DNA of 64,000 bases. It comes from Candidatus Komeilibacteria bacterium. Lineage in GTDB: Bacteria > Patescibacteriota > Patescibacteriia > UBA1558. Location: positions 787,011 through 851,010 of the forward strand of contig JBLYPX010000001.1 in NCBI GenBank assembly GCA_048538235.1, in the 5' to 3' direction. The notes beneath the pieces were generated by a model. The model made no database searches. It saw only the letters and a program-made list of their open reading frames with translations, and had not been told where the DNA came from. Below, one piece after another: positions 17,469-48,413 of this stretch. The position numbers and the translations under genes were made by a program. Each line of letters starts with the position of its first letter. Position 1 is the first letter of the stretch.

Positions 17469-18569
17469 ATGAAATTTATATGCACAAGAGAAAATTTGAA
17501 TAATGGTTTAAGCGTTGTAAACCATTTAGCTTCTCACAATGCAAACCTACCAATTCTAAATAATGTTTTAGTAGATGCTAAAGACGGAATAATAACTTTA
17601 GCTACAACAAATTTAGAAATTGGGATTAAGGTTGTAGTGAGAGGGAAAATAGAAACAGAAGGTTCTTACACTGTGCCAGCTCGTTTATTTTCAGATTTTG
17701 TTTCATTACTGCCAAATGAAAACGTAGATATAGATTTAGAAACAGATGGTTTAAATGTACGTTGTAAAAATTCACAAACACAAATTAAAGGAATGCTGTC
17801 AGAGGATTATCCTTTAATTCCAGATGTTAGTTCAGATAAAAAGGTTTCCATAGATATGCAAGTTTTTAAAGAAACTTTAGGACAAACAGTTTTTGCAGCA
17901 ACGCTAGATGATAATAGACCAGAAATTAGTGGTGTGTTTTTTAACTTCAAAGGTCAAGATCTTGTGGTGGCAGCAACAGACAGTTATCGTTTGGCTGAAA
18001 AGAGAATTAAAGTAGAAAATTCTATTGATCAAAAAGTTATTATACCTTTAAAAACTCTACAAGAACTTAGTAGAATTTTAGCAAACACTACAGAAAAGAA
18101 AATAGAAATATATTTAAATGAGAACCAAATAGCTTTTAGTTGTAATAATATAGTTTTAACTTCGCGTTTAATTGATGGAAATTACCCAGATTATGAACAA
18201 ATTATACCCACGGATGAAAAGACAGTAACAAAGGTTGGTGTTAGTGAGTTAGTTAAAGCTATAAAAGGTGCTTCATTGTTCTGTAAAACAGGGATAAATG
18301 ATATAAAAATGACTATTATACCTTCAAAAAATGAAGTGGTTATCCTGTCAACAAACAGTGGATTAGGAGAAAATATTACCAACATAAAGGCAGATATTAA
18401 GGGCGAAGAGGTGGAAATAGTCTTTAATTACCGCTATTTACTTGATGGCTTAAATAACTTACAATCAGAGCAGGTAATAATAAAAACCTCCAATCAAGGT
18501 GCTCCAGGGGTTTTTGTGCCGGACAACAAAGAAGGATACCTATACATTGTGATGCCAATCCGGCAATAA
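17469..18569 (+). CDS. dnaN: DNA polymerase III beta sliding clamp
   Basis: 366 aa, three-domain beta-clamp pattern. N-terminal MKFICTRENLNNGLSVVNHLAS. Confidence 0.9.
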   Translation: MKFICTRENLNNGLSVVNHLASHNANLPILNNVLVDAKDGIITLATTNLEIGIKVVVRGKIETEGSYTVPARLFSDFVSLLPNENVDIDLETDGLNVRCKNSQTQIKGMLSEDYPLIPDVSSDKKVSIDMQVFKETLGQTVFAATLDDNRPEISGVFFNFKGQDLVVAATDSYRLAEKRIKVENSIDQKVIIPLKTLQELSRILANTTEKKIEIYLNENQIAFSCNNIVLTSRLIDGNYPDYEQIIPTDEKTVTKVGVSELVKAIKGASLFCKTGINDIKMTIIPSKNEVVILSTNSGLGENITNIKADIKGEEVEIVFNYRYLLDGLNNLQSEQVIIKTSNQGAPGVFVPDNKEGYLYIVMPIRQ

Positions 18570-25463: not shown

Positions 25464-27041
25464 ATGTTAGTGCGTAATAGTTTCCAAAAAATAATACATT
25501 TTATCAAGGATCATAGATTAAATTATTTATTGGTTTTTTTATTAGTCTTTTTGCTAATGTCTTGGCTACAAGCAGGTCCATATTTTCTAGGAACAGAATC
25601 TTTTTACCATGCTAAGATGGTGGAAAGTTTAGAAAATTCGCTAAAATTAGATAATTTTTCTTGGTTACAATCTACTAATTATTCTAATAGTTTTACAGAT
25701 AGTAATTGGCTTTATCATATATTTTTGAGTTTGTTTGTTGGTGTTTTGCCAACTTTTTTAGTTATAAAAATATTCGCAGCGCTTTTTTCAGCGCTACTAG
25801 CTTTGTATGTATATTATTGGTTAACAAAACACAATGGATTTCTTCCGGGGCTATTTGTGCTCCTTTTATTTTCAATTATTCCGTTTGCTATTAGTATTAA
25901 TAACTTGGGTGCTATTAGTGCGGCCTTGTTTGTTTTGCTGGTTGGTTTAGAGTTTGTTGTGAATTATAGGTATTGGCAACTAGGCGTTCTTAGTATCACA
26001 TTAACCCTCCTAACAGGACAATTTATTTTCTTATTTGTCATCGCTTTACTCTGGCTTTTAATTGAGCTGATATACAACAAGTATAAACTAGATATGTTCA
26101 GAGAAGGATTGTCGAGTATTAAAGATTGGGTACTGAGAAAGTTGGGGCTACGTAGTAAAACTAGTAGAAGGAAATGGTTGATTTTAATATTTTGTTTGTT
26201 TGGCATAGTGATTGGCTTAATGGTTAATCCGTATTGGCCAGAGAGCACGTCTTTTTATAAGGAGCTTATTGCTAACAAAAACACAAACACGTTCTCAGGA
26301 GTATATAATAGCTTTGTTAGTCTAATTTCATCTGCCAAGCTATTGTTTATAATATTTTTGTCATCAGTATTCAGCGTTGTTTATTTGAATAAAAGAATTG
26401 TTAAACTTACAGCCTTTTTATTACTACTAACATTTGTATTTGTTTTAAACACCTTGCTGTTTAGTTGGGGAATAGAGTTTACATACTTGATTATTATTTT
26501 AACAACTTCACTTATACTAAGAGATTGTTTTGGAAGTCTTGGTTTGTGGTCTGCCTGGAATAGCCATAAAAGAAACACTAATTTAGTTAGAGCTGGAATT
26601 GTTATAGCAACTATTATTATTTTGTTTATACCCCTGAAAGGGTACTATGTTCTAAATAAAGATGGTGATTTTTACCCATTGAATTATATGCAAGAAGCAG
26701 CAGAGTGGTTATATTATCATATTCCAGATAATGCGCTGGTTATTAATACAGATTACGAGGATTGGGCTCCTTTGTTTTATTATAATGACAATAATAGATA
26801 CTGGTGGGGTTTGAGTAATAACATTATGAATAATGCTCAAAAATCAAGCAGGAATGACCTGATTGGTATTATAGATGGTTCTAGTAATAAAAACCCTTAT
26901 GCCCTATTTAAAGGCAGTTTTAAAGCAGATTACCTATTGGTAAATAGTCGTAGAAATATACTGAATAGTCGCTTAACAGACAATATATACTTTTCATTAG
27001 TATATAGCGATGAGGATTGCTATATATATGAAATACAATAA
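25464..27041 (+). CDS. large polytopic membrane protein, GT-C-fold glycosyltransferase-like (ArnT/PMT/YfhO-like), 12+ TM
   Basis: 525 aa. First extracytoplasmic loop contains GTESFYHAKMVESL (acidic DE-like motif typical of GT-C enzymes). Many TM helices, then about 150 aa soluble C-terminal domain rich in N/Y/W. Convergent with the pilin operon. Confidence 0.4.
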   Translation: MLVRNSFQKIIHFIKDHRLNYLLVFLLVFLLMSWLQAGPYFLGTESFYHAKMVESLENSLKLDNFSWLQSTNYSNSFTDSNWLYHIFLSLFVGVLPTFLVIKIFAALFSALLALYVYYWLTKHNGFLPGLFVLLLFSIIPFAISINNLGAISAALFVLLVGLEFVVNYRYWQLGVLSITLTLLTGQFIFLFVIALLWLLIELIYNKYKLDMFREGLSSIKDWVLRKLGLRSKTSRRKWLILIFCLFGIVIGLMVNPYWPESTSFYKELIANKNTNTFSGVYNSFVSLISSAKLLFIIFLSSVFSVVYLNKRIVKLTAFLLLLTFVFVLNTLLFSWGIEFTYLIIILTTSLILRDCFGSLGLWSAWNSHKRNTNLVRAGIVIATIIILFIPLKGYYVLNKDGDFYPLNYMQEAAEWLYYHIPDNALVINTDYEDWAPLFYYNDNNRYWWGLSNNIMNNAQKSSRNDLIGIIDGSSNKNPYALFKGSFKADYLLVNSRRNILNSRLTDNIYFSLVYSDEDCYIYEIQ

Positions 27042-27059
27042 ATTTAGGTAACAAAAAAA

Positions 27060-27080
27060 CTGCTCGTCTGAGCAGTTTTT
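27060..27080. terminator. bidirectional terminator CTGCTC-GTCT-GAGCAG flanked by A8 and T5 between the GT-C-like gene and the pilin operon end
   Basis: Read directly. Confidence 0.65.
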
Positions 27081-27094: not shown

Positions 27095-27565
27095 TTAATT
27101 TATCACACAACGACTCTCGTCTAGACCATTGGTCCAGCAATGGAATCCACTAGGACAATCTGAATCAGAACTACATTCATTACCACCACCCCTAGTTGAA
27201 TTGTATACATTTGTTATTACAAAGTCAGTTATTACATAGGCTGCTAAAACTATGATTAAACCTATAATGGCGTTTATAATTCTTTTTTTAGCTGAGTCGA
27301 TAGCGGTTGAATTACCACCAGCTGTCATCCATTGAAAACCAGACCATATAATAAGGATAACAAATACAAGACCTAAAAAGCCAAGTAGAATTTGTATAAA
27401 ATTTATTACTATATTTTCTACATCTGTTGATGTGGTAGATCCGGTAACACCTTCTTGAACATAATCAAATTCACTGTTCACCAGGTCGCCTAAATCTGCC
27501 TGAGCTAAAGGTGTGAACAGAACAAAAGAAAATATAATTAAAGTAAGAAGGATAATTTTTTTCAT
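27095..27565 (-). CDS. VirB2/TrbC-like (T4SS-type) pilin paralog P1, subfamily A, with Cys-rich C-terminal module
   Basis: 156 aa. Signal peptide (…PLAQA/DLG), variable acidic/T-rich segment, then the conserved hairpin core IQILLGFLGLVFVILIIWSGFQWMTAGGNSTAIDSAKKRIINAIIGLIIVLAAYVITDFVI. C-terminal GGGNECSSDSDCPSGFHCWTNGLDESRCVIN has 4 Cys. Confidence 0.65.
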   Translation of the reverse strand: MKKIILLTLIIFSFVLFTPLAQADLGDLVNSEFDYVQEGVTGSTTSTDVENIVINFIQILLGFLGLVFVILIIWSGFQWMTAGGNSTAIDSAKKRIINAIIGLIIVLAAYVITDFVITNVYNSTRGGGNECSSDSDCPSGFHCWTNGLDESRCVIN

Positions 27566-27566: not shown

Positions 27567-27944
27567 TTATTGTACAGAGTCTATTACTTTATCTAAAACA
27601 AATTCAGTTATAGCAAAGGCTGCAATTACTATAATTAAACCTATAACGGCGTTTATAATTCTTTTCTTAGCTGCATCTATTACAGTTGAGTTGCCACCAG
27701 CCATCATCCATTGGTACCCAGAAACTATTATTAATATTATAAAAATTATTGATAGCAAGCTAAGAGCTATTCGAATAATATTTACTATAATGTCTTGTGG
27801 GGTTGCCGGCTCATAGTCTGCGCCGAGAGCAGCGGTTTCAACTAACTCATTTTTTGCATTTATATCGTCTTGAAGAGAGGCTAATGAAACTAAAGGAGTG
27901 GCTATTGTTAGTAATATTAAAAATGTTAAAAGTAATTTTTTCAT
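27567..27944 (-). CDS. VirB2/TrbC-like pilin paralog P2, subfamily A
   Basis: 125 aa. Signal peptide, variable region, SGYQWMMAGGNSTVIDAAKKRIINAVIGLIIVIAAFAITEFVL. Confidence 0.65.
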   Translation of the reverse strand: MKKLLLTFLILLTIATPLVSLASLQDDINAKNELVETAALGADYEPATPQDIIVNIIRIALSLLSIIFIILIIVSGYQWMMAGGNSTVIDAAKKRIINAVIGLIIVIAAFAITEFVLDKVIDSVQ

Positions 27945-27949: not shown

Positions 27950-28339
27950 TTAATGTCTTCCTCCTAAGGTGAAAGCTTTTTCTATAACAAAGTCAGTTAT
28001 ACCAAATACAGCTAAGGTTATAACTAAACCAATAATTGCATTTACCATACGTTTTTTAGCTGAATCAATGGCAGTAGAGTTACCACCAGCTGTCATCCAT
28101 TGATAGCCAGAAATTAAAATAAGAATAGTAAATATTACCCCAATAAAACCAAGTGCTATCTGAATTGCATTACCGACAATAATGGCCGGATCTTTCACGC
28201 CTGGAGCCTCTCCCGCGCTATTATAATATGCTTGACCACCAGTTTGTTTGAGGTTTTCTCCTATTGATGTAGCTCCAACGGGCAAGGCAACGCTAATTAG
28301 CAGGAAAATAATTATTAATTTTATTATATTTTTGTTCAT
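27950..28339 (-). CDS. VirB2/TrbC-like pilin paralog P3, subfamily A
   Basis: 130 aa from the internal ATG at 28337-28339 (MNKNIIKLIIIFLL…). The ORF-track start at 28378 would overlap P4. Core SGYQWMTAGGNSTAIDSAKKRMVNAIIGLVITLAVFGITDFVI. Confidence 0.6.
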   Translation of the reverse strand: MNKNIIKLIIIFLLISVALPVGATSIGENLKQTGGQAYYNSAGEAPGVKDPAIIVGNAIQIALGFIGVIFTILILISGYQWMTAGGNSTAIDSAKKRMVNAIIGLVITLAVFGITDFVIEKAFTLGGRH

Positions 28340-28343
28340 AATT

Positions 28344-28769
28344 TTATTGAACTTGCTGTGTTTCAAGGCTGCCACCACCAGTACTTATTAATATTTGGTC
28401 TGTTACAAACCAAGTGATACTATATGCAGCTAGGGCTATTACCAAGCCAATTGTTGCATTAATCATGCGTTGCTTAGCTTTTCCAATAGCTTCACTATTA
28501 CCACCAGCCATCATCCACTGAAAGCCAGATATGATGATTAGTATCAAGAAAACTGTACCCAAGAAGCCTAATATAATTTGTATAAAGTTACCAATTCTAA
28601 CTGGCAGTGGAGTTTCGTCACCTGTGTTAAAACCAGACTGTGTTCCAAACTCTGAATAACTATCTATTGGAGAACCTTCTGTAGGGTTTAATACATCTGA
28701 ATTAATAAGAGCGGCACCAGCAGGTATAGCTATAATCATTGCCAATAAGATGGATATAAAAAGTTTCAT
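28344..28769 (-). CDS. VirB2/TrbC-like pilin paralog P4, subfamily A
   Basis: 141 aa. Core SGFQWMMAGGNSEAIGKAKQRMINATIGLVIALAAYSITWFV. Confidence 0.65.
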   Translation of the reverse strand: MKLFISILLAMIIAIPAGAALINSDVLNPTEGSPIDSYSEFGTQSGFNTGDETPLPVRIGNFIQIILGFLGTVFLILIIISGFQWMMAGGNSEAIGKAKQRMINATIGLVIALAAYSITWFVTDQILISTGGGSLETQQVQ

Positions 28770-28770: not shown

Positions 28771-29163
28771 TTATATATTAGCTACACTTGTTATCACAAA
28801 GCTTGTTAAAGCATAGGCTGCTAAAACAACTATTAAACCTATGGTGGCATTTATAAGTCTTTTTTTTGATGTATCAATAGAGCTAGAATTACCACCAGCT
28901 GTCATCCACTGAAAACCAGAAACTATTATTAATACTAAGAAAAGGGTTCCTATTAAACCAAGAGCTATTTGTACTACAGAAGCCACAATTTGCTGTGGAT
29001 TTTTGTAGCCAGCTTCGTCCTTGGTGGTAAACCCAGCTTCACCTGCTGTTGTTTCCAGCCCAGTTTCTATAGCTAAAAGAGGAGCGGCTATTATAACTAA
29101 AAAAGAGGTTACAATAAATATAACCACCAATAAAGCACTTAAATTGTTTATAGATACTTTCAT
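28771..29163 (-). CDS. VirB2/TrbC-like pilin paralog P5, subfamily A
   Basis: 130 aa. Core SGFQWMTAGGNSSSIDTSKKRLINATIGLIVVLAAYALTSFVI. Confidence 0.65.
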   Translation of the reverse strand: MKVSINNLSALLVVIFIVTSFLVIIAAPLLAIETGLETTAGEAGFTTKDEAGYKNPQQIVASVVQIALGLIGTLFLVLIIVSGFQWMTAGGNSSSIDTSKKRLINATIGLIVVLAAYALTSFVITSVANI

Positions 29164-29225: not shown

Positions 29226-29597
29226 TTAAGCTTGAGTTGCGCCTTGAATGTTTGTAATAACAAATGAGGCAATAGCGTAAGCAGCTAAAATGATGATCAA
29301 ACCGATAACACCATTAATAATAAACTGTCTACCTTTCTTAACTCTGTCTTCATTACCACCAGCTGTCATCCACATGAATCCACCGATTAGAATCAAAATA
29401 ACAGCGATTAAGCCTAAGAAGCCCAAGATGATAGAGATGATGTTATTTACAATATCTTTAACACCAGCATCACCTAAGCCTAAAGCTTGTGCGTCTTCCA
29501 ATCCTAAGTCAGCTGTTGCCATACTTAGCATAGGAGCTGCCATGAAGGCAACAATCATAACGATTGCGAATAATTTTTTGTTCATAAGTTTTTTCAT
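29226..29597 (-). CDS. VirB2/TrbC-like pilin paralog P6, subfamily B, with own promoter and strong SD (candidate major subunit)
   Basis: 123 aa from the ATG at 29595-29597 (MKKLMNKKLFAIVMIVAFMAAPMLSMATA/DLG…), preceded by AAAGGGGGTGA SD. Core GGFMWMTAGGNEDRVKKGRQFIINGVIGLIIILAAYAIASFVI. The ORF-track start at 29621 is a TTG with no SD. Confidence 0.65.
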   Translation of the reverse strand: MKKLMNKKLFAIVMIVAFMAAPMLSMATADLGLEDAQALGLGDAGVKDIVNNIISIILGFLGLIAVILILIGGFMWMTAGGNEDRVKKGRQFIINGVIGLIIILAAYAIASFVITNIQGATQA

Positions 29598-29651
29598 AAT
29601 GTCACCCCCTTTCGTGGGCAAATTAATTATTATTATGTTAACTATAGTAAT

Positions 29652-29681: not shown

Positions 29682-30032
29682 TTAGTTAGCAGGAATTATT
29701 TCAAAGATAAAGGCTAGAATGCTATAAGCTGAGAATATAATTACAATGCCTAAAGTAGCCCAAATAAGAGTATCTTTACCCTTTTTTATCTTGTCCATGT
29801 TGCCAGAAGCTGTCATCCACATGAATCCACCGATAATGAAATATATTAAAGCTATTGTTCCGGTTAGCCCCAGTACAGCTTTAATTATTAACCCAACTAG
29901 TTCCTGAGGACTCTCTGTGGTCAAAGGGTTTGTAATATGAATAGATTCTTCAGTGGTTTCTGCGTGAACAGATAAGGCTGTAAACAGTAGCAATGAAGAT
30001 GTTCCTATGTAGTTTATTATTTTTTTAATCAT
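29682..30032 (-). CDS. VirB2/TrbC-like pilin paralog P7, subfamily B
   Basis: 116 aa. Signal peptide …SVHA/ETT. Core GGFMWMTASGNMDKIKKGKDTLIWATLGIVIIFSAYSILAFIF. Confidence 0.6.
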   Translation of the reverse strand: MIKKIINYIGTSSLLLFTALSVHAETTEESIHITNPLTTESPQELVGLIIKAVLGLTGTIALIYFIIGGFMWMTASGNMDKIKKGKDTLIWATLGIVIIFSAYSILAFIFEIIPAN

Positions 30033-30047: not shown

Positions 30048-30656
30048 TTATTCAGATTGACAGCAAACAATATTGTTTGGACCAAAACACATATTACTTA
30101 CAATTGTCCCCTCGACACATTGCGTAGAGTTTCTGCAGGCATAACCTCCACCCTCTGGCGGAGTAGCATCACATTTTTGTACACAGTCATTATTTATACA
30201 TATGCCCAAACCACTTCTACAAGAATCATTTTCTTGAAGACCATCGCAAGGTCCAGCAACTTGAGTGTTGGTGTTTTCTAATGACCTGGTAGAGATAGAA
30301 ACTAAAATTGTTTGAACAATTAACCACGCGCCCATCACTATAACAATTCCAATCACAGTATTTACCATTATATCTTTACCCTTTTCAATTTTTCCCGATT
30401 TACCACCAGATGTTAGCCACATAATTCCACCGAATATGAAAAAGAGTAGAGCAAAGCTACCAAGTATACCTAATCCCCATTTGCTTAAGACTACAAAGGT
30501 GTTAAAACCCTGATCAAGAGAACAGCTACCGTCTGCAATACAAGAGTCTTCGTAGTCTGTTGATCCTTCAGGGTAGAAACTTGAGTCTTGCAAAACTGAA
30601 GCACTAGCAAGAAGCGGTGTGACAAGTAAAATTAGAACAATTATTAATTTTTTCAT
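30048..30656 (-). CDS. VirB2/TrbC-like pilin paralog P8, subfamily B, with 66-aa Cys-rich (11 Cys) C-terminal module
   Basis: 202 aa. Signal peptide. Variable region with 2 Cys. Core GGIMWLTSGGKSGKIEKGKDIMVNTVIGIVIVMGAWLIV. C-terminus PCDGLQENDSCRSGLGICINNDCVQKCDATPPEGGGYACRNSTQCVEGTIVSNMCFGPNNIVCCQSE. ATGA overlap with the upstream SBP gene. Confidence 0.6.
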   Translation of the reverse strand: MKKLIIVLILLVTPLLASASVLQDSSFYPEGSTDYEDSCIADGSCSLDQGFNTFVVLSKWGLGILGSFALLFFIFGGIMWLTSGGKSGKIEKGKDIMVNTVIGIVIVMGAWLIVQTILVSISTRSLENTNTQVAGPCDGLQENDSCRSGLGICINNDCVQKCDATPPEGGGYACRNSTQCVEGTIVSNMCFGPNNIVCCQSE

Positions 30657-32050
30657 TCTGGTTTTTTAATTGTTTGATTTATTTTTCGAACTATTAAGTC
30701 TAGTAAATCCATAGTTGTAAACTCACTAGAAACATTATGATATGCCTGATAAATTAAATCTTCCATCGCTGAATTTGCTTCACTGTAGTCATAGCCACGA
30801 TACCAGGCTCTAGCGTTTAGGACTTGGTCAGCAAACACACCAACACTTTCGCTTTGTATTTGGTTGTTTATTAAAGATAAAAGTGCAGTTGGTTGTTCAC
30901 TAGCTTCTAAATATGCCATAGTTACTTCTGGTGTTGTAGTTACAAATCTTATAAAATCCCAAGCTGGTTGAATTTTATCTTCAGAAGAGCCAAAATATGT
31001 AGATAATGCCCAGAAATCTGCAAAATTAACCTCTTGTACATCTGGTACGGTTTGTAGCATTGGTGCAATATTGAAGTTTAATTTAGGAGATTGAGCTTTA
31101 ATTATTGGTGCCTGATAAGAGTAGCCAATAAAGTAAGCAAGTTTTCCAGAAGTAAACATTTCTAATGCATCTGGTTTATCTTCAGACCAAGAGTATACTT
31201 CCTTAGTTGGATCAATAAAGTTTACAAAAAATTCTAGAGCATCTTTACCAGGATAAAACTTTCCCTGTCCAGGAGGAGGTTGGTTGAATGTTACATTATT
31301 ATATTCATCTGTCATTTGAGCACCATTTTGCATCATTAGCAGTGCTAGTATATCTGTTGCTCTTGGAATGTTTGTGGCAGAGCCTAATGCAATTCCAGCT
31401 TGTTGAATATTTCCATTGCCATCAAAAGTTGTTAATTCTTTTACTTGCTCAATTAATTCAGCCCAAGTAGTAGCGGGTAAAGGTATTTTAGCGCTGTTTA
31501 GTAAATCGCGATTATAATATAGAGCTAAACTATCAACACTTAAAGGTAGGCCATAAATTTGATTATCTATTACCACTTGATCATAGACAGCTGGAACAAA
31601 TAACTCTTGAACCTTTTTTGGAGTAAGGCCCGCAACTGTTTTAATAACAACAGTTGGTTCTTGTTTAATAGTGCCCTTCATTTCAACATAAGGAATACGC
31701 ATAGATTCAGGCATTTCCTTTATCAAACTTTGGTATTGCCTAATCTGTGTAGAAGGGATAGAAAATATTTCTGGACCTCTTTGTTCTAGCCAAGCTTGCG
31801 TTAACTCGCTTTCATATTCTTCGTATCTGAACTTTCTATACTTAATCTTAATGTTTGGGTGTATTGTCTGGTAAGCATTTATTAAACTAGCAACGTCTGC
31901 TGTTTCTTCCCAAACACCCCACCAATTTAATTCAACAGGTTTGTATAGTTGTTCGACCTCACTACTTTGTGAGAATTTACAACCAAAACCCATTAGTGGA
32001 AGTGACACCAAGATTAAAGTAAGAATAGATAATTTTGTTTTAGATAGCAT
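30653..32050 (-). CDS. extracellular solute-binding lipoprotein (ABC transporter SBP family 1, sugar/MalE-like), orphan: no permease or ATPase adjacent
   Basis: 465 aa. Lipoprotein signal LILVSLPLMGFGC. MalE-like two-lobe pattern (…YRGYDYSEANSAMEDLIYQAY…). Translationally coupled to pilin P8 (stop/start overlap ATGA). Confidence 0.65.
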   Translation of the reverse strand: MLSKTKLSILTLILVSLPLMGFGCKFSQSSEVEQLYKPVELNWWGVWEETADVASLINAYQTIHPNIKIKYRKFRYEEYESELTQAWLEQRGPEIFSIPSTQIRQYQSLIKEMPESMRIPYVEMKGTIKQEPTVVIKTVAGLTPKKVQELFVPAVYDQVVIDNQIYGLPLSVDSLALYYNRDLLNSAKIPLPATTWAELIEQVKELTTFDGNGNIQQAGIALGSATNIPRATDILALLMMQNGAQMTDEYNNVTFNQPPPGQGKFYPGKDALEFFVNFIDPTKEVYSWSEDKPDALEMFTSGKLAYFIGYSYQAPIIKAQSPKLNFNIAPMLQTVPDVQEVNFADFWALSTYFGSSEDKIQPAWDFIRFVTTTPEVTMAYLEASEQPTALLSLINNQIQSESVGVFADQVLNARAWYRGYDYSEANSAMEDLIYQAYHNVSSEFTTMDLLDLIVRKINQTIKKPE

Positions 32051-32165
32051 AGTAATTTTTAATTAAAACTAAGTAAATTATACAATTTTATAGGTGATTT
32101 GTAAAACAAAGACCTGATTAAGAAAATACTATATAATACATATATTATTATTAACATATATAATT

Positions 32166-32681: not shown

Positions 32682-32769
32682 TGGCGGAGGCGGGAGGATT
32701 CGAACCTCCGAGACCAAAAGGTCCACTGCTTTTCGAGAGCAGCGCATTAAACCACTCTGCCACACCTCC
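32682..32769 (-). tRNA. tRNA-Ser (anticodon CGA), long variable arm, CCA encoded
   Basis: RC reads GGAGGTGTGGCAGAGTGGTTTAATGCGCTGCTCTCGAAAAGCAGTGGACCTTTTGGTCTCGGAGGTTCGAATCCTCCCGCCTCCGCCA. Anticodon loop CU-CGA-AA. Type II variable arm. Its 5' end abuts the stop codon of the upstream gene. Confidence 0.85.
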
Positions 32770-34160
32770 TATTCAAGTTGCGACAATTTTTTGTTTACAG
32801 TGTGGTTGTAAAGAACTATTGTAATTCCTACTATTAGCCAAAATAATATACTAAGGTCATTTTTAAAATATGGGACATCAACTATTCCATGAATTATTAT
32901 AACAATTAAAGAGGCACCAACACCTAAGCTTAGGTGAGTAATATATTCTTTTTTATAAATTGGTAGCCACTTCTTTTTAATATTTATTCTGTATATTAAT
33001 ACACCAAGGATTATAAAGAGCCACAAGGTGCTAATAAGACCAAGTATACCAACCTCTGTCCAGAAATTTAAAATAATATTATGAGGATAAAGAAAAACCT
33101 CAACTGGTTGCCACTTATCATTTATGGTAATTCCAGATGAATGGTATTGTTTAACAGCTTCTTGGTAATTTGCTAGCCCACCTCCAGTAAACGGATTATC
33201 TTTAAGCATGGATATTGTTTCAGTCCACTGAGCTCTACGTATTTGTCCAGAATAGTCAGATATCGTTATTTTCTCAAAAGCTACACTTCTTAAAGAAGGG
33301 GTTATTAGTATTACAAAATATAATATTACAGCTAAAACTATTGCTAGTAGGCGGGTGTGTTTTTTTGCTAGTAATATAATGAACACACCAATACTTAAAG
33401 CTATTAAAGCACCTTCTGAGCTTGCCCAAATGATTGTAAATATTATTGAAATAAAAGCAATGAATTTTAATATTTTTAAGTATGTATATTCTTTAATCCA
33501 CAGAGTCGCAAAGATAAGAGCTCCAATTGGAGCAAGTAATAATCCATTGGCATTTGGATAACCAAAAAAGGTTGTTACTCTCCTTGTTTCTGGTAAATAC
33601 CAATCTAGTACAGGTATGTTCCAGCCAGTAAGCTTTTGTATTAAAGCATAGATGAATATTATTATAGACAAAACACTAAAGGTGTATATTAGTTTGTTTA
33701 TCTCAGAATTTTTTCTTATATAATATAGTAAAACGCCTAAAAACATTAATGGTTCTAGAAAGTATGCTTTCCATATTCCAGCACCAGCCATTGTTTGTGG
33801 AGTTGTAATAAGAGCAATAATAGAGGCTAGAAAGAATATAAATATTGGCAGAGCTATTATCTTAGGGATTAAATTTCTTTTACTAGTAGCTATTTTTTCT
33901 TCTTCTGCTTTGAAGAATTTTTTAAACCAAGCGCTAATAGCAATGTGTAGTTTTCTACTTTGCCATAGTTTAATAACCCACATTATGAATAGCAATACTA
34001 CCATCCCTTCTAAAAGTGTGGCTGGTATATTAAATATTTGAAAACGGATCAAATACGTTGGTAATAATAAAATAGTTAAATAAATACCTCTTTGCATACG
34101 AGGCCAAGCTAGAATAATAAAGAAGAGATAAAAGATAGCAATTAATATTAGATTTAACAT
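32769..34160 (-). CDS. O-antigen ligase/polymerase-like (Wzy_C family) polytopic membrane protein
   Basis: 463 aa, about 12 TM. Periplasmic-loop motif FLYPHNIILNFWTEVGILGLIS resembles the Wzy_C H-N...E.G signature. Confidence 0.55.
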   Translation of the reverse strand: MLNLILIAIFYLFFIILAWPRMQRGIYLTILLLPTYLIRFQIFNIPATLLEGMVVLLFIMWVIKLWQSRKLHIAISAWFKKFFKAEEEKIATSKRNLIPKIIALPIFIFFLASIIALITTPQTMAGAGIWKAYFLEPLMFLGVLLYYIRKNSEINKLIYTFSVLSIIIFIYALIQKLTGWNIPVLDWYLPETRRVTTFFGYPNANGLLLAPIGALIFATLWIKEYTYLKILKFIAFISIIFTIIWASSEGALIALSIGVFIILLAKKHTRLLAIVLAVILYFVILITPSLRSVAFEKITISDYSGQIRRAQWTETISMLKDNPFTGGGLANYQEAVKQYHSSGITINDKWQPVEVFLYPHNIILNFWTEVGILGLISTLWLFIILGVLIYRINIKKKWLPIYKKEYITHLSLGVGASLIVIIIHGIVDVPYFKNDLSILFWLIVGITIVLYNHTVNKKLSQLE

Positions 34161-35576
34161 TTATTTGGCTCTTAATTCATTTAAAATACTTTTATCTATA
34201 CCTTTAACAAGGTATAGAACAAGTGCATATATTAAGGAGGCTAGGACTATTAATAATATTAGGTTCAAACTGAAGCATAGATATATAAAAACTCCCATTA
34301 TTAAACTGGCGAATATTATTTTTCCACTCATTTTTAAGCTTATTCCAACTTGTGAATATTTATAACAAACATAGAAAGCAAAAATTGCATAAAGTAATTC
34401 TATAAACACAGTTATACTAGCTGCTGCCCAGTAAGAGAATTGTGGAATGAATACAAAATATAATATTAAAGAAAGAACAGCGGTTATAATATAGTAAGGA
34501 ATCATTTTCTTTTGTTTATCTATTGCTAATATAATGTATCCAAAAAGACTACCAAAGAAAATAATAGCTGTTGCCCATATTAATATTTTTAAAACACCGC
34601 CTGAGGCTAAAAAGTCGTCTCCGGCTATTAAAACCATAACCCTGTCAGCAAGTAGCATAGTGCCAACTATTAAGGGTGCTGCCACAATTAAAAAGAAATC
34701 AAATACTTTTTGGTAAACTCTTTTAAATCTTTCAATATTTTTTGTAACATAAGCGGTTGTTAGAACTGGCAGGACAAGCCCTAAGAACATATGAGGGAAT
34801 GTACCTATTATTTCTAATACTTTATAGGTTGCACCATAAATACCAACCTCGCCCTCTGATCTAAAAACAGATAGGATAAGAGTATCAGCTTTAAAATATA
34901 CCAAGGTGAGTAGTGAGGTTAAAGCAATTGGCCAAGCTCTGTGCCAAATTTTTTTCCAATAAGCAAAATCAAAACCAAAACTAAACTTTGTATAACCCCT
35001 GGCCATAAAAAAGATTAAGGAAAAGTATATTAGATTAAATACGACATTACCGAGGATTATGTATAGTAAGTCCTTTTGAAAAACCACAGCTAAAATTACG
35101 GTGATTAAAAAAGCGAATCTTCCTAACACTTCTGTTCCAATTATTTTATCCATTCGTAAGTTCTTTTGAAACAAAGCTACTAATACTTGCGCTAAGGTAA
35201 ATAAGAAGAATGATACAGACATTAAAACAACGCCTTGTTTAACAATAATTGCATAAGGGAATAATAGAACAACAAAAGGTGCGAGAGCAAAAAATACAAA
35301 TGAAGTAATTAATTTTATAGTAAATACATTACTCACAGCTTTTTTCTCATCTACTTCAGGGTCAGATATTTCTTGCATCAAGGCAAGGTATAGACCAAGG
35401 TCTACAATAACAGCAAAGAATTGAACAAAAGCGAGCACTGTGGCGTATTGCCCATAACCGGCTTGTCCTAAATGTCTGGTTATTAACCCAACAATAATAA
35501 CACCAATAATGGTGCTAATTATTTTACCAGTAAATTGAATTACGGTGTTATAGGCTACTTTTTTAGTTAATGACAT
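34161..35576 (-). CDS. oligosaccharide/polysaccharide flippase (MOP superfamily, Wzx-like)
   Basis: 471 aa, about 14 TM. N-terminus MSLTKKVAYNTVIQFTGKIISTIIGVIIVGLITRHLGQAGYGQYATV is typical of the Wzx/polysaccharide biosynthesis protein family. Confidence 0.7.
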   Translation of the reverse strand: MSLTKKVAYNTVIQFTGKIISTIIGVIIVGLITRHLGQAGYGQYATVLAFVQFFAVIVDLGLYLALMQEISDPEVDEKKAVSNVFTIKLITSFVFFALAPFVVLLFPYAIIVKQGVVLMSVSFFLFTLAQVLVALFQKNLRMDKIIGTEVLGRFAFLITVILAVVFQKDLLYIILGNVVFNLIYFSLIFFMARGYTKFSFGFDFAYWKKIWHRAWPIALTSLLTLVYFKADTLILSVFRSEGEVGIYGATYKVLEIIGTFPHMFLGLVLPVLTTAYVTKNIERFKRVYQKVFDFFLIVAAPLIVGTMLLADRVMVLIAGDDFLASGGVLKILIWATAIIFFGSLFGYIILAIDKQKKMIPYYIITAVLSLILYFVFIPQFSYWAAASITVFIELLYAIFAFYVCYKYSQVGISLKMSGKIIFASLIMGVFIYLCFSLNLILLIVLASLIYALVLYLVKGIDKSILNELRAK

Positions 35577-36705: not shown

Positions 36706-37422
36706 TTAAAAGTCTGATTGTATAGATAATGATGTATTTACCCTGTTTACCTGCTGTTCTTGTCTGAATACGGAAATAGTTATTTGTTTTTGGGCTCCGT
36801 GTTTCTTAACGGCGGTTACTTCTAATATGTTTAAACCTAAGGATAAATTAATGTCTTTAGCGAAATCTCCATTCGCATCTGCTAGCACAAGTTCATTATT
36901 AATTGTTAACTCTATTTCTGGATCAGTTTCTCCACTAATTGTTATTAATCTAGAGTCAGTCGTAATATTATTAGCTGGCTCATGTATTAATAGTGATGGT
37001 GGCTTAATAATATTATATACTCCTGTTCCTATATAGAAGATAAAAGCAAATGTAGCCAGAGCGATACCAGTTGCTCTAAGAGTTTTTGGATTTAACCACG
37101 AAAGCCAACTATCTTTATGAACACTTGGTCTATCAAAGCCAGTGAATTGCATTTGTACTCCTTTTTCTCTGTCATACTCTTTGATTAACCAACGTATATC
37201 TAAATCTAATAATTTACCATAAGATCTTAACCATTGTTGAGCATAAACCTCTCCTGGTAAAGACTCATAGGCACCATCTTCTAAAGCTTCTAAATACTTA
37301 ACTTGTATATTAAGTTTTTTTGAAACATCCACCAATTCTAGAGACTGTTCCTCTCTTGTCTTTCTTAATGTTTCAGGCACTGTTTGGTGAGAGACTACTT
37401 TTTTTGTAATAAATGAATTCAT
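36706..37422 (-). CDS. RodZ-like protein: cytoplasmic HTH (XRE-like), single TM, extracytoplasmic DUF4115-like domain
   Basis: 239 aa from the ATG at 37420-37422 (MNSFITKK…). The ORF-track start at 37521 would overlap ftsK by about 100 nt. HTH ETLRKTREEQSLELVDVSKKLNIQVKYLEALEDG. TM IALATFAFIFYIGTGVYNII. Confidence 0.55.
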   Translation of the reverse strand: MNSFITKKVVSHQTVPETLRKTREEQSLELVDVSKKLNIQVKYLEALEDGAYESLPGEVYAQQWLRSYGKLLDLDIRWLIKEYDREKGVQMQFTGFDRPSVHKDSWLSWLNPKTLRATGIALATFAFIFYIGTGVYNIIKPPSLLIHEPANNITTDSRLITISGETDPEIELTINNELVLADANGDFAKDINLSLGLNILEVTAVKKHGAQKQITISVFRQEQQVNRVNTSLSIQSDF

Positions 37423-37423
37423 G

Positions 37424-39697
37424 TTATTTATCCTCTTCCTCTTCATTATATTCATCGTCTTTGTTTTGTCCAGAGTCTTCATTTTCTGACGTTTCATCTG
37501 AATCATCATCTTCCCATTCATCAGTATATTCTCTCATATCTAGATTTTCCTCAAGATCCTCTTGTCTTAACAAAACTTCTCTTGGTTTAGCTCCATTAGG
37601 AGGACCAACTATACCTTTTTCTTCTAGCATATCCAGTAGACTAGCAGCTCTAGCATAACCAACTCTTAATCTTCTTTGTAACAATGAAGCAGATGCTTTA
37701 CCAGCCTTAACTACAACTTCTTGAGCATCAGTTAATAGTTCATCCTCATCATTACCTCCACCAAGTGTGCCACCAGGCATACTACCAATTTTTTGTCTTT
37801 CAACAATTGCTTCGTCATATTCTGGCTCACCTTGTTCTTTCCAGAAATTTACAACATTGTTTATTTCCTTTTCTGAAACAAAAGCACCTTGTAATCTTCT
37901 TGGTTCAGGAAGTTCAGAAGAAGTGTATAACATGTCTCCATTGCCAAGTAGTTTTTCAGCACCAGGAGAATCTATGATTGTTCTTGAATCAATATTTGAA
38001 GCAACAGAAAAAGCTATTCTAGTTGTAATATTGGCTTTAATTAAACCAGTAATAACATTAGTAGAAGGTCTCTGTGTAGCAATTATTAAATGAATACCAA
38101 CTGCTCTAGCAAGCTGCGCAAGTCTAATAATTGATGGCTCTACATCTTTTGGATTAATAACCATCAACTCAGCAAGTTCATCAATTATTATTACCAAATA
38201 AGGCATTCTGTTAACCAAAACACTGCTATTGTATGATTCTATATCTTTCTTACCAACGCTTTGTAAAAGTTTATATCTTTCTTCCATTTCACTAACTGCC
38301 CAGCGTAAGGCATTAATGGTTTTTGGAATCTCCGTAATAATTGGAGTTAATAAATGAGGGATATTATTGTATACAGACAACTCAACTCTCTTTGGGTCTA
38401 CCATTATGAACTTAAGTTCGTCTGGATGGTATTTGTATAAAAGGCTGACAATAAATGCATTTAGGCAAACGCTTTTACCTGAACCAGTTGCACCAGCAAT
38501 CAGACAATGAGGCATTTTAGATATGTAAGTAACCTTTGATTCTCCAGACACATCTTTACCAAGAGCAACTACTAGTGGTTTAGGAGCTCTTTGAAAGCTG
38601 TCAGATTCAATAATTTCTCTTAATTTAACAACAGCTACTTTTTTGTTTGGTACTTCTACACCTACTAATGATTTACCAGGAATAGGAGCTTCAATACGAA
38701 TACGTTTAGCAGCTAGAGCTAAAGCAATATCCTTATCTAAAGCTGTTATTTGAGATAGTTTAATACCATCGGCAGGTTTAAAGGTAAACTGTGTGACTGT
38801 TGGCCCAATATTTGCTTCGCCCATAGTTACTTCTATGTTGAAGTTCTCAAAAGTTTTACGTATTTTTTCTGCACTAGAATCTATATCTCCGCTAGTTGGT
38901 TCGCTACCATTTTTATCTAATAAATCTATTGGAACCTTTACCTTAGGAGCTTTCTTCCTAGGCTTTGGCATTTCAATTAATTCATTATCTGAAGATTCTT
39001 TTTTGTTGGTTTTTTCTTCTACAACCTCTTCATCTTCTTCCTCTTCATAGTCTTCTTCATCTTCATCTTCTTCGTAATCATCTTCTTCGTACTCTTCTTC
39101 CTCTTCATAGTCTTCTTCATAATCTTTACCACTTCTGTTGAAAGAGAAAGATTTTATCTTAAGCCATAACAATCTAAAGATATTAACTTTATTACCAAGC
39201 TCATCTAAGGAGATGTTAAAAGATATTAAAATAGATATTAAAAGTAAACCTAACAAAATTACAAAAGAGGCAAAACCACCCATAGCTTGTTGTAATGGTT
39301 GGGTTATAGCATAACCAATATATCCACCACCCTGATCAGCTGTAAAAGTATTTTGTAAATTATTGAAATCATGTATTAATTCTAAAAGTCCTGAGTAGGC
39401 TAGAATAACAAAAAATAATCCAAGATAATTGCTAGGCTTTAATAAGTATTTATCTGGATTAAGAAGGAAATATCCCCACATTAAAAGTAGTAGCGGGAAT
39501 ATCCATTTACCCCACCCTAGGATCATTCCTAGGATTTGATCAGTAATTATTCCAAAAGCTCCAGCCAGATTTAGCAAAGCAAGTAGTGCAAGTAGTGCAA
39601 TAAGGAAAATTAGGATAATAAAGATACCTTTTTTAGTCTCAGCAGATAGAATTTCACTGTTTTTTCTACCTCTTTTTGATTTTTTCTTTTTAGCCAT
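37424..39697 (-). CDS. ftsK: DNA translocase FtsK/SpoIIIE with acidic D/Y/E-repeat linker
   Basis: 757 aa. N-terminal 4 TM. Linker EDYEEEEEYEEDDYEEDEDEEDYEEEEDEE. Motor with Walker A GATGSGKSV. C-terminal gamma winged helix LLQRRLRVGYARAASLLDMLEEKGIVG. Confidence 0.9.
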   Translation of the reverse strand: MAKKKKSKRGRKNSEILSAETKKGIFIILIFLIALLALLALLNLAGAFGIITDQILGMILGWGKWIFPLLLLMWGYFLLNPDKYLLKPSNYLGLFFVILAYSGLLELIHDFNNLQNTFTADQGGGYIGYAITQPLQQAMGGFASFVILLGLLLISILISFNISLDELGNKVNIFRLLWLKIKSFSFNRSGKDYEEDYEEEEEYEEDDYEEDEDEEDYEEEEDEEVVEEKTNKKESSDNELIEMPKPRKKAPKVKVPIDLLDKNGSEPTSGDIDSSAEKIRKTFENFNIEVTMGEANIGPTVTQFTFKPADGIKLSQITALDKDIALALAAKRIRIEAPIPGKSLVGVEVPNKKVAVVKLREIIESDSFQRAPKPLVVALGKDVSGESKVTYISKMPHCLIAGATGSGKSVCLNAFIVSLLYKYHPDELKFIMVDPKRVELSVYNNIPHLLTPIITEIPKTINALRWAVSEMEERYKLLQSVGKKDIESYNSSVLVNRMPYLVIIIDELAELMVINPKDVEPSIIRLAQLARAVGIHLIIATQRPSTNVITGLIKANITTRIAFSVASNIDSRTIIDSPGAEKLLGNGDMLYTSSELPEPRRLQGAFVSEKEINNVVNFWKEQGEPEYDEAIVERQKIGSMPGGTLGGGNDEDELLTDAQEVVVKAGKASASLLQRRLRVGYARAASLLDMLEEKGIVGPPNGAKPREVLLRQEDLEENLDMREYTDEWEDDDSDETSENEDSGQNKDDEYNEEEEDK

Positions 39698-48406: not shown

Positions 48407-48413
48407 TCAAACA

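What the first reader, a model, noticed from the sequence alone, without database searches (positions are those of the whole stretch)
30048..32050. Orphan sugar-type substrate-binding lipoprotein coupled to the pilin array
The 465-aa MalE-like solute-binding lipoprotein (lipobox LMGFGC) ends with its stop codon overlapping the ATG of pilin P8 (ATGA). It is therefore the first gene of the pilin operon. Its divergent promoter region is shared with bcp. No ABC permease or ATPase genes are nearby.

A carbohydrate-binding SBP co-expressed with pilins suggests a non-transport role: a pilus-associated lectin/adhesin, or a receptor that delivers scavenged sugars from a host surface. Such a role would fit an episymbiotic small-genome bacterium.
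Basis: partly seen in the sequence, partly recalled or inferred. Interest (0 to 1): 0.6.

Follow-up and report, generated by a model that had tools for sequence, protein, structure and literature searches.

The report
Orphan sugar-binding lipoprotein paired with pilins
In an ultra-small (Patescibacteria/CPR) bacterium, a MalE-like binding lipoprotein with no transporter genes nearby is fused by gene overlap to a cysteine-rich secretion-system-type pilin gene; this pairing recurs in nearly every related genome checked, which points to an undescribed surface module rather than an ordinary sugar importer.

Summary
Window 30653-32050(-) encodes a 465-aa SBP_bac_1/8 lipoprotein. Its TGA overlaps the ATG (ATGA) of a 202-aa gene, the first of eight tandem 'pilin' genes. 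These are VirB2/TrbC-type T4SS pilins (PF18895), not type IV pilins.

No ABC permease or ATPase gene lies in the 64-kb window, nor within +-10 kb of the orthologue in 82 other loci.

The pairing is strongly conserved. In 73 of 75 species-level genomes with enough downstream sequence, a pilin gene starts within 200 nt of the SBP stop (median gap 9 nt), although the upstream neighbours differ. Four distant relatives (30-38% identity, different membrane anchors, one double-SBP fusion) show the same arrangement. The invariant unit is the SBP plus one specialised, usually Cys-rich, pilin. The long array is lineage-specific.

Published KO tables for two closed ABY1 genomes list the sugar SBP (K02027) but no cognate permeases.

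I found no paper describing this linkage.

Best reading (about 0.45): a lipid-anchored, ligand-binding receptor that works with the VirB2-like surface apparatus, not with an ABC importer. The ligand and the exact role are unproven. Verdict: a new variant of known kinds, interest about 0.68.

The parts
30653..32050 (-). Solute-binding lipoprotein, 465 aa, CUT1/MalE-like (SBP_bac_1/8). NCBI MFW0862715.1.
   Evidence: Pfam. AF2 model with pLDDT 88 and pTM 0.85. Foldseek top PDB hits are oligosaccharide SBPs at 13-19% identity. hhalign to E. coli MBP gives 90.7% probability and shows a ~25-30-residue insertion at 108-142, modelled as a beta-hairpin. Lipobox Cys24 is conserved. Identity of the protein.
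30048..30656 (-). P8: specialised VirB2-like pilin, 202 aa. It has a Sec signal (..ASA|SV), a CxxxxxC-L-D motif, a two-helix membrane hairpin and a ~70-aa C-terminal domain with 10 Cys. NCBI MFW0862714.1.
   Evidence: PF18895, 4.1e-10. ATGA overlap with the SBP stop. AF2 model: helices 47-81 and 87-121 plus a small beta-rich domain at 135-202, pLDDT 77. SBP-adjacent pilins are longer and Cys-rich across loci (median 161 aa and 3.5 Cys, against 136 aa and 0 Cys for array pilins). Alignment A2.
29682..30032 (-). P7: VirB2/TrbC-like pilin, 116 aa.
   Evidence: PF18895 2.1e-09 and PF04956 TrbC 3.8e-07. 15-nt gap after P8.
29226..29621 (-). P6: VirB2/TrbC-like pilin. The likely ATG is at 29597.
   Evidence: PF18895 and PF04956. 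ORF list.
28771..29163 (-). P5: pilin, 130 aa.
   Evidence: PF18895 3.9e-09.
28344..28769 (-). P4: pilin, 141 aa.
   Evidence: PF18895 2.2e-08. 1-nt gap after P5.
27950..28378 (-). P3: pilin. The likely ATG is at 28339.
   Evidence: PF18895 3e-06.
27567..27944 (-). P2: pilin, 125 aa.
   Evidence: PF18895 1.3e-07.
27095..27565 (-). P1: last pilin, 156 aa, with a short 4-Cys C-terminal tail.
   Evidence: PF18895 2.3e-10. Alignment.
32077..32105 (-). Sigma-70-like promoter candidate TTTACA-17-TATAAT, 27 nt upstream of the SBP ATG.
   Evidence: It is the best match (11 of 12) in 26.9-32.8 kb. The scan as a whole is not enriched over shuffles (27 found, 26.2 expected), so this is a candidate only.
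27055..27080 (.). Palindromic G+C hairpin with A5/T5 arms, lying between the end of P1 and the convergent 525-aa gene. Candidate bidirectional terminator.
   Evidence: No minus-strand terminator-like site was reported between 32050 and 27095.

Best explanation
The SBP and P8 form a conserved two-gene extracytoplasmic module of Patescibacteria, and the SBP does not feed an ABC importer.

Shown:
- The two genes overlap (ATGA).
- A candidate promoter precedes the SBP, and no terminator-like site was found before the end of the pilin genes.
- The SBP carries a lipoprotein signal. P8 carries a Sec signal, a VirB2-like two-helix hairpin and a disulfide-rich ectodomain. The predicted topology puts both proteins on the outer face of the cytoplasmic membrane.

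Inferred:
- The SBP still binds a small ligand, most likely an oligosaccharide-like one that is the same across the class. The bilobal fold is intact, and family-invariant residues align with MBP contact positions (D173~E111, Y312~W230, Q241/N242 near E153).
- It docks on or signals through the specialised pilin, perhaps through the family-specific beta-hairpin at 108-142.
- This gives the VirB2-like (T4SS-type) surface apparatus a ligand- or host-glycan-recognition function: receptor, adhesin or gate. The remaining pilins would build or vary the filament.

The coupling to the pilin is well supported. Independence from ABC transport is moderately supported. The ligand and the receptor/adhesin role are conjecture.
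For: Adjacency and tight spacing:
- 73 of 75 species-level loci have a pilin gene within 200 nt of the SBP stop. The median gap is 9 nt and 14 pairs overlap.
- The other two loci carry the pilin at +481 and at +1432 (after an inserted pair of genes).
- The upstream gene varies (ComM 43 loci, GalU-like 23, SMC 6, bcp in the window), as does what follows the first pilin (RodZ-like gene 46 loci, more pilins 20).
- Distant members at 30-38% identity, with TM anchors or a double-SBP fusion, keep the pairing.

No cognate transporter:
- No ABC ATPase or permease in the 64-kb window.
- None within +-10 kb in 82 loci. The only Walker A + LSGGQ hits are SMC. The only recurrent polytopic ORF of permease size is Lgt, and 10 singleton ORFs tested by Pfam are not BPD_transp_1.
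- Two closed ABY1 genomes have K02027 without K02025, K02026 or K10112 (PMC11809585 Table S10).

The SBP looks functional:
- AF2 pLDDT 88. Foldseek E 1e-22 to oligosaccharide SBPs.
- 58 invariant columns across 20 sequences at 41-80% identity, many of them Trp, Tyr, Asp, Glu, Gln or Asn.
- hhalign equivalences with MBP.

Lipoprotein maturation genes are present in relatives: LspA in L004 and Lgt in L023.

Context from the literature:
- VirB2-like pilin arrays are widespread in Patescibacteria. No PrgB-type adhesin was found for the Patescibacteria T4SS (PMC12102498).
- The pilin subunits are essential for epibiotic growth of S. epibionticum (PMC10633639).
Against: - There is no direct evidence of a physical SBP-pilin interaction, of ligand identity, or of expression.
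- I could not scan the window's own 860-kb genome for permeases. The closed-genome evidence comes from another ABY1 order, rests on BlastKOALA, and the orthology of its K02027 to this SBP is assumed, not shown.
- No VirB4 or other T4SS core gene lies in the window or recurs in the 82 loci. The link to a T4SS machine therefore rests only on the Pfam homology of the pilins.
- Fold searches with the P8 model returned only generic helical hairpins.
- In the NTW motif that aligns with MBP D65/R66, the window SBP reads STQ, differing from the family consensus.
- Recurrent glycan-synthesis and recombination neighbours fit other roles.
Confidence: 0.45

Rival explanations
1. Envelope or pilin glycan biogenesis and assembly. 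The SBP binds the organism's own glycan (a lipid-linked or pilin-attached oligosaccharide) or the pilin ectodomain. It would act as an extracytoplasmic chaperone or positioning factor during maturation of the Cys-rich pilin, much as the SBP-like lipoprotein LpqW acts in mycobacterial glycolipid synthesis (comparison from my own knowledge).
For: - A GalU-like NTP_transferase lies directly upstream in 23 loci and in distant L087 and L089.
- A Wzx-like flippase and a Wzy_C protein lie upstream on the same strand in the window and in other Komeilibacteria-type loci.
- A GT2 plus large polytopic proteins (unknown families c8, c25, c35, or DUF2079) flank pilin arrays in many loci.
- High SBP conservation (about 45% identity across the class) contrasts with fast-evolving pilins (51-58% where the SBP is 75-80%). 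This fits an invariant self ligand.
Against: - The glycan-related neighbours are lineage-specific, whereas only the SBP-pilin pair is invariant.
- There is no evidence that the pilins are glycosylated.
- The polytopic proteins have no detectable homology to known glycosyltransferases.
Confidence: 0.25
2. Ordinary CUT1 ABC import. The SBP serves permeases and an ATPase encoded elsewhere in the genome, and its position next to pilins reflects only co-regulation of surface proteins.
For: - The protein is a full-length, well-folded family-1 SBP with a lipoprotein anchor, as in monoderm importers.
- NCBI and JGI name it an ABC transporter or multiple-sugar SBP.
- CUT1 ATPases are often unlinked (established knowledge).
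- The window's own genome was not scanned in full.
Against: - CUT1 permease genes are normally adjacent to their SBP. Here none lies within 64 kb, nor within +-10 kb in 82 genomes.
- Closed ABY1 genomes list no K02025 or K02026.
- Co-regulation alone does not explain a 9-nt median spacing kept across 30-45% sequence divergence and changing contexts.
Confidence: 0.12
3. Capture receptor of an import conduit. The VirB2-like filament of the relaxase-less Patescibacteria T4SS draws host-derived material (DNA or oligonucleotides, or another nutrient) toward the cell. The lipid-anchored SBP at its base binds the cargo, replacing the missing ABC route. Import through VirB2-type machinery has precedents in H. 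pylori ComB and the archaeal Ced system (my own knowledge).
For: - ComM lies directly upstream in 43 loci and RecA follows two genes downstream in 18.
- ABY1 T4SS loci co-localise with comF, recG and radA, and most of these T4SS clusters lack relaxases (PMC12102498).
- The fold family includes a dinucleotide-binding SBP, 7c0v, at Foldseek rank 46.
- These organisms lack nucleotide synthesis (PMC11809585).
Against: - The closest sequence and structure matches are oligosaccharide binders. UgpB and nucleotide-type binders score much lower.
- The ComM and RecA neighbours may be inherited synteny within one sublineage. They are absent from the window and from the GalU-type contexts.
- No T4SS ATPase is nearby.
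Confidence: 0.12
4. The adjacency has no functional meaning and is a frozen accident of gene order.
For: All loci come from one phylum, so shared ancestry inflates the counts.
Against: Flanking genes on both sides have been reshuffled several times while the pair, its orientation and its near-zero spacing persist. This holds even between subfamilies with different anchors and in a fused double SBP.
Confidence: 0.03

Closest known systems
CUT1-family ABC-importer binding proteins (E. coli MalE; CpMnBP1, 4R9F; T. maritima MalE3; GacH; the sophoro-oligosaccharide binding protein 5YSD)
   Same: - Pfam SBP_bac_1/8 and the bilobal type-II periplasmic-binding fold.
- Lipoprotein anchoring, as in monoderms.
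- The conserved YYN(R/K)DLL hinge motif.
- Aromatic or acidic residues at MBP contact positions.
   Different: - Only 13-19% identity to any solved SBP.
- A family-specific insertion of ~25-30 residues (108-142, beta-hairpin) and a second insertion near 215-235.
- No adjacent permease or ATPase genes in 83 genomes.
- Always followed by a VirB2-like gene.
VirB2-like pilin arrays of the Patescibacteria T4SS (PMC12102498; the essential pilin series of S. epibionticum, PMC10633639)
   Same: - Tandem arrays of 2-11 divergent PF18895/PF04956 genes. The window has 8, at a mean identity of 36%.
- Located about 10 kb from dnaA and dnaN.
   Different: - Neither paper mentions a solute-binding protein.
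- Here the array is not next to virB4.
- The first pilin is a distinct Cys-rich class tied to the SBP.
Sulfolobus bindosome (Bas system; PMC3047682)
   Same: Sugar-binding proteins are functionally and genetically associated with small pilin-like proteins at the surface of a cell that lacks an outer membrane.
   Different: - Bindosome SBPs have class III (type IV pilin-like) signal peptides. They need a T4P-type ATPase and membrane protein (BasEF), and they still feed ABC transporters.
- Here the SBP has a lipobox, the partner is VirB2-type, and no ABC transporter is evident.
- This is an analogy only.
Binding proteins that act through non-transport partners (ChvE-VirA in Agrobacterium vir induction, MBP-Tar, LuxP-LuxQ) and the SBP-like lipoprotein LpqW (from my own knowledge, not tested here)
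   Same: An SBP fold used as a ligand sensor or scaffold that docks on a membrane protein other than an ABC permease. ChvE even links sugar sensing to a T4SS.
   Different: - Those partners are kinases or chemoreceptors, or glycolipid enzymes in the case of LpqW.
- ChvE and MBP also serve real ABC transporters.
- No kinase or chemoreceptor gene was seen among the genes I identified around the SBP-pilin pair.

Membership tests
ABC importer substrate-binding protein (CUT1 / Pfam SBP_bac_1, SBP_bac_8) | Sequence match to the family HMM above the gathering score | tested here: met
   SBP_bac_8 85.4 bits (cut-off 27) and SBP_bac_1 69.8 bits (cut-off 26).
ABC importer substrate-binding protein (CUT1 / Pfam SBP_bac_1, SBP_bac_8) | Two-lobed type-II binding-protein fold | tested here: met
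   AF2 pLDDT 88. Foldseek E 8e-23 to 5ci5, 4rjz and MalE3, with TM 0.6-0.8.
ABC importer substrate-binding protein (CUT1 / Pfam SBP_bac_1, SBP_bac_8) | Export signal and lipid anchor (monoderm type) | tested here: met
   LMGFGC24. 69 of 82 orthologues have a canonical lipobox. Lgt and LspA genes are present in relatives.
ABC importer substrate-binding protein (CUT1 / Pfam SBP_bac_1, SBP_bac_8) | Cognate BPD_transp_1 permease pair (and ATPase) encoded with it | tested here: not met
   None in the 64-kb window. None within +-10 kb in 82 loci. The window's full genome was not scanned.
ABC importer substrate-binding protein (CUT1 / Pfam SBP_bac_1, SBP_bac_8) | Binds a transported solute and docks on the permease | not testable with these tools
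   Only indirect: invariant residues at MBP contact positions in a 21%-identity profile alignment.
T4SS pilin (VirB2/TrbC; PF18895, PF04956) | HMM match above the gathering score | tested here: met
   All eight genes pass PF18895 (27.7-40.8 bits, cut-off 26.6). P7 and P6 also pass PF04956.
T4SS pilin (VirB2/TrbC; PF18895, PF04956) | Signal peptide followed by a two-helix hydrophobic hairpin with a short basic loop | tested here: met
   Alignment. P8 AF2 helices at 47-81 and 87-121.
T4SS pilin (VirB2/TrbC; PF18895, PF04956) | Structural similarity to solved VirB2/TraA pilins | tested here: inconclusive
T4SS pilin (VirB2/TrbC; PF18895, PF04956) | Encoded with VirB4 and other T4SS core genes | tested here: not met
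   No VirB4-like ORF in the window: the only Walker A ORFs are DnaA, RecA, FtsK and the 686-aa ORF at 53751-55811 (UvrB-like by its N-terminal sequence, not tested). No recurrent VirB4-like cluster in the 82 loci. PMC12102498 reports pilin genes away from virB4 in about 40% of assemblies, so this does not exclude membership.
T4SS pilin (VirB2/TrbC; PF18895, PF04956) | Polymerises into a pilus | not testable with these tools
   -
Archaeal bindosome (Bas) | SBP with a class III (prepilin-type) signal peptide; BasEF T4P-type ATPase and membrane protein | tested here: not met
   The SBP has a lipobox signal. No T4P ATPase or platform gene in the window or among the neighbours identified in the loci. 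Analogy only.

The most novel reading that the evidence does not exclude
The SBP and the VirB2-like proteins together form an ABC-independent 'host-tapping' machine. A T4SS-type filament or conduit contacts the host cell. The lipid-anchored SBP, docked on the Cys-rich pilin at its base or surface, recognises or captures host-derived molecules (glycan, nucleotide or lipid head-group). This would be the missing receptor/adhesin of the essential Patescibacteria T4SS, and a new way of using a binding protein.
Probability: 0.13. Interest if true: 0.9.

Novelty: new variant of a known kind. Interest (0 to 1): 0.68.

Why it matters
Patescibacteria make up a large share of bacterial diversity and live attached to other cells. 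They depend on a relaxase-less T4SS-like system with pilin arrays, and neither its function nor its host-recognition component is known (PMC12102498, PMC10633639).

A binding protein that is genetically welded to a specialised pilin across hundreds of lineages, and that lacks its own transporter, is a concrete and clonable candidate for that missing recognition or capture component.

It yields direct experiments: ligand screening of a soluble, well-folded protein; SBP-pilin binding assays; and knock-outs in tractable relatives.

Tried and rejected

2. The 525-aa membrane protein next to the array (25464-27041) has no Pfam, NCBIfam or PDB match. 31 database homologues are all 'hypothetical'. 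A GT-C glycosyltransferase identity therefore remains a guess, based only on a shared DPDxF[YW]HxK motif.

3. I tried to extend the window by looking up end-of-window proteins. This failed because the exact sequences are not on record, probably owing to different start codons. The rest of the 860-kb genome could not be inspected.

4. The promoter/terminator scan is not enriched over shuffles. I use only its single best hit, and only as a candidate.

5. My first greedy ORF pipeline undercounted adjacency (70 of 82), because spurious overlapping ORFs displaced pilin genes in high-GC loci. Inspection of L046 and L078 showed this, and the recount gave 73 of 75.

6. I first thought the conserved upstream genes c3 and c9 might be permeases. 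They are ComM-like Mg-chelatase and GalU-like NTP_transferase.

7. Literature searches for any report linking solute-binding proteins to VirB2-like pilins in CPR found none. The library omits many subscription papers.

8. Rejected: type IV pilus involvement, because the pilins are PF18895/TrbC-type. Also rejected: a chance ATGA overlap, given the conservation.
Full report
WHAT IS THERE

The window comes from an 860,445-bp contig of a Candidatus Komeilibacteria MAG (Patescibacteria/CPR). The two central proteins are identical to NCBI MFW0862715.1 ('ABC transporter substrate-binding protein') and MFW0862714.1 ('pilin').

ORF 30653..32050(-) encodes 465 aa. It matches SBP_bac_8 (7.8e-24) and SBP_bac_1 (5.3e-19). 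Its N-terminus, MLSKTKLSILTLILVSLPLMGFGC, is a lipoprotein signal.

The DNA at the 3' end reads ...CCAGAATGAAAAAA, so the TGA stop overlaps the ATG of ORF 30048..30656(-).

That ORF (P8, 202 aa) and seven more tandem ORFs down to 27095 all match PF18895 'T4SS_pilin'. P7 and P6 also pass the TrbC/VirB2 model. The 'pilins' are therefore VirB2-type pilins of type IV secretion systems, not type IV pilins.
- They share 22-49% identity, mean 36%.
- They are packed with gaps of 1-84 nt.

bcp (AhpC/TSA, 7e-45) is divergent from the SBP gene across 115 nt.

The best sigma-70-like match in the region (TTTACA-17-TATAAT, 11 of 12) sits 27 nt upstream of the SBP start. No minus-strand terminator-like site was found before a palindromic hairpin at 27055-27080, just after the last pilin. 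The scan as a whole is not enriched over shuffles, so these are candidates only.

IS THE SBP ORPHAN?

In the window:
- No ORF of 90 aa or more combines Walker A with an LSGGQ signature.
- The membrane ORFs are YidC, a Wzx-like flippase, a Wzy_C protein and proteins with no Pfam family. None is BPD_transp_1. Pfam tables of syntenic loci agree.

In 82 non-redundant related loci (+-10 kb each):
- The only Walker A + LSGGQ hits are SMC.
- The only recurrent polytopic ORF of permease size is Lgt.
- Ten singleton candidates tested by Pfam are SdpI, EamA, YibE/F, MscS, CDP-OH transferase and similar families.

At whole-genome level I could not scan this genome. A published BlastKOALA transporter table for ten ABY1-class genomes, two of them closed (939 kb and 917 kb), gives the following (PMC11809585 Table S10):
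- K02027 (multiple-sugar SBP) is listed in nine of the ten.
- K02025, K02026 and K10112 are not listed.
- The only ABC membrane components listed are ABCB-type, FtsEX and K02003/K02004.

That this K02027 is the orthologue of the window SBP is likely but not shown.

IS THE LINKAGE REAL?

I scanned one genome per GTDB species with an SBP alignment. This found 418 relatives, and the best 80 were kept. They carry labels such as Komeili-, Falkow-, Kuenen-, Uhr- and Buchananbacteria, and their GC ranges from 29.5 to 62%. I then searched them with an HMM built from the window's pilins.
- Of 75 loci with at least 600 nt downstream of the SBP, 73 have a pilin gene on the same strand starting within 200 nt of the SBP stop. 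The median gap is 9 nt; 14 pairs overlap and 58 have gaps of 30 nt or less.
- The other two loci carry the pilin at +481 and at +1432, the latter after two inserted genes.
- Meanwhile the neighbours change. Upstream is ComM-like (43 loci), GalU-like (23), SMC (6) or, in the window, divergent bcp. After the first pilin come either more pilins (20) or a RodZ-like HTH_25 gene (46).
- Among 57 loci with at least 5 kb downstream, 42 have exactly one pilin after the SBP and 14 have arrays of 6-11.

The conserved unit is therefore the SBP plus one pilin. The long array directly behind it is a Komeilibacteria-type arrangement.

The family is large: 715 representatives (clusters at 50% identity) at E<=1e-30. 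Four distant members were looked up: two TM-anchored proteins, one with a lipobox-like signal, and one 813-aa tandem double SBP, at 30-38% identity. All are followed by PF18895 genes. In one case the next gene is a 489-aa protein with a pilin core embedded between large Cys/Thr-rich ectodomains.

THE PARTNER PILIN

SBP-adjacent pilins form a distinct class.
- They are longer than array pilins (median 161 aa against 136 aa).
- They are Cys-rich (median 3.5 Cys, up to 22, against a median of 0).
- They carry a CxnC-L-(N/D)-D-F motif just before the first helix.
- Many carry a 6-Cys module (..GY.C..C..C..CCQ) at either extracytoplasmic end.

The AF2 model of P8 (pLDDT 77) shows a helical hairpin (47-81 and 87-121) and a small beta-rich Cys domain (135-202). 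With VirB2 topology, both termini and the Cys domain face outward, on the same side as the lipid-anchored SBP.

The pilin evolves faster than the SBP: 58% and 51% identity where the SBP is 80% and 75%.

THE SBP ITSELF
- AF2 gives pLDDT 88 and pTM 0.85.
- The Foldseek top hits are CUT1 oligosaccharide binders (5ci5, 4rjz, MalE3, GacH and the sophoro-oligosaccharide, cycloalternan and cellodextrin binding proteins) at 13-19% identity.
- The best PDB sequence match is the manno-oligosaccharide binder 4r9f (6e-25). UgpB-type proteins score far lower.
- hhalign to E. coli MBP (90.7% probability) places invariant D173 at MBP E111, Y312 at W230, and Q241/N242 next to E153.
- The same alignment reveals a ~25-30-residue insertion (108-142, a beta-hairpin in the model) that no PDB SBP alignment covers.
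- Across 20 sequences at 41-80% identity, 58 columns are invariant, many of them aromatic or acidic.

I infer that ligand binding is retained and that the ligand is conserved. It is probably carbohydrate-like, and the hairpin is a candidate partner-binding element. None of this was tested directly.

HOW IT MOST LIKELY WORKS

The SBP and the Cys-rich pilin are co-transcribed and translationally coupled, and both are placed on the outer face of the membrane. My preferred reading (about 0.45) is that the SBP is a ligand-recognition subunit of the VirB2-like surface apparatus (receptor, adhesin or gate) rather than the receptor of an ABC importer.

This fits published observations that the Patescibacteria T4SS has pilins but no recognisable adhesin or relaxase, and that its pilins are essential for epibiotic growth (PMC12102498; PMC10633639).

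Rivals:
- Self-glycan or pilin maturation role (0.25). It is suggested by the GalU, Wzx/Wzy_C, GT2 and large polytopic-protein neighbours.
- Ordinary ABC import with unlinked permeases (0.12).
- Capture receptor of an import conduit, possibly for nucleic-acid-derived cargo (0.12). It is hinted at by the ComM and RecA neighbours and by the reported comF/recG/radA association of ABY1 T4SS loci.
- Meaningless synteny (0.03).

COMPARISON WITH KNOWN SYSTEMS
- By sequence and fold, the protein belongs to the SBP_bac_1/8 family. It fails the operon criterion of an ABC importer.
- The pilins belong to PF18895/TrbC by HMM. They are not next to virB4, and their fold could not be matched specifically.
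- The Sulfolobus bindosome (PMC3047682) is the nearest functional analogy: SBPs assembled with pilin-like proteins. It uses type IV pilin machinery and still serves ABC transporters.
- ChvE-VirA, MBP-Tar, LuxP-LuxQ and LpqW (from my own knowledge) show that SBP folds can work through non-transport partners.

NOVELTY

Both parts are known kinds, and Patescibacteria VirB2-like arrays have been described. I found no report of the SBP-pilin module in eight literature queries or in the two key papers and their supplements. I rate it a new variant of a known kind, with interest 0.68.

LIMITS
- No expression, interaction or ligand data.
- The loci are phylogenetically related.
- The window's genome was not scanned in full.
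- The closed-genome evidence is second-hand KO annotation.

Noticed in passing
window 25464-27041 (+): A 525-aa polytopic membrane protein lies convergent with the last pilin. It belongs to a CPR-restricted family with no Pfam, NCBIfam or PDB match (NCBI 'hypothetical', ACKKL6_03950). Other unknown polytopic proteins (c8, c35) or DUF2079, often with a GT2, flank pilin arrays in many related loci. They share a DPDxF[YW]HxK motif near the N-terminus. This may be a surface or pilin glycosylation system.
   Followed up: partly
window 32682-35576 (-): A Wzx-like flippase (34161-35576) and a Wzy_C/O-antigen-ligase-like protein (32769-34160) lie directly upstream on the same strand as the SBP. tRNA-Ser(CGA) follows at 32682-32769. 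Wzy_C proteins include the O-oligosaccharyltransferases that glycosylate pilins in other bacteria (my own knowledge).
   Followed up: partly
window 15824-18569 (+): dnaA and dnaN were confirmed by Pfam, and GC skew changes sign near 12 kb. The SBP-pilin operon thus lies about 10 kb from the replication-origin genes, matching the published remark that Patescibacteria T4SS genes sit near dnaA.
   Followed up: partly
loci L010-L085 (for example L010:1218-2738, L009:8990-9859): The gene just upstream of the SBP is a ComM-like Mg-chelatase-family protein in 43 loci and a GalU-like NTP_transferase in 23 (and also in distant L087 and L089). RecA lies two genes downstream in 18 loci. Recombination and competence genes are also reported next to ABY1 T4SS loci.
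   Followed up: partly
window 36706-37521 (-); for example L004:11908-12576: A RodZ-like gene (HTH_25 plus Glucodextran_B-like domain) directly follows the first pilin in 46 related loci. In the window it lies five genes upstream on the same strand.
   Followed up: no
L089:1449-3890: An 813-aa protein (P0271) made of two tandem copies of this SBP is preceded by a GalU-like gene. Its stop overlaps the start of the following PF18895 pilin gene.
   Followed up: partly
L088:9389-10858: A 489-aa protein with no Pfam hit lies directly after a distant SBP. It contains a VirB2-like two-helix core embedded between a ~300-aa N-terminal ectodomain and a Thr/Cys-rich tail, making it a 'giant' pilin.
   Followed up: partly
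L050:7538-8916: Two genes (295 aa and 95 aa, unannotated) are inserted between the SBP and its pilin. This is the only locus where the pair is split by intervening genes, and it may be a mobile insertion.
   Followed up: no
window 27095-27565 (-): The last pilin (P1) carries its own short 4-Cys C-terminal tail (ECSSDSDCPSGFHCWTNGLDESRC). This is unlike the five pilins P2-P6 in the middle of the array.
   Followed up: no
PMC11809585 Table S10 (closed ABY1 genomes): A family-5 peptide/nickel SBP (K02035) is also listed without permeases. Orphan binding proteins may be a general feature of these genomes.
   Followed up: no
window 47591-48946 (+), 3052-4032 (-), 62669-63859 (-): Several small or secreted ORFs have no Pfam family. 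They include a 326-aa secreted Cys-containing protein and a 122-aa putative lipoprotein (..LSGC). GC rises to 39% in the last 2 kb of the window.
   Followed up: no
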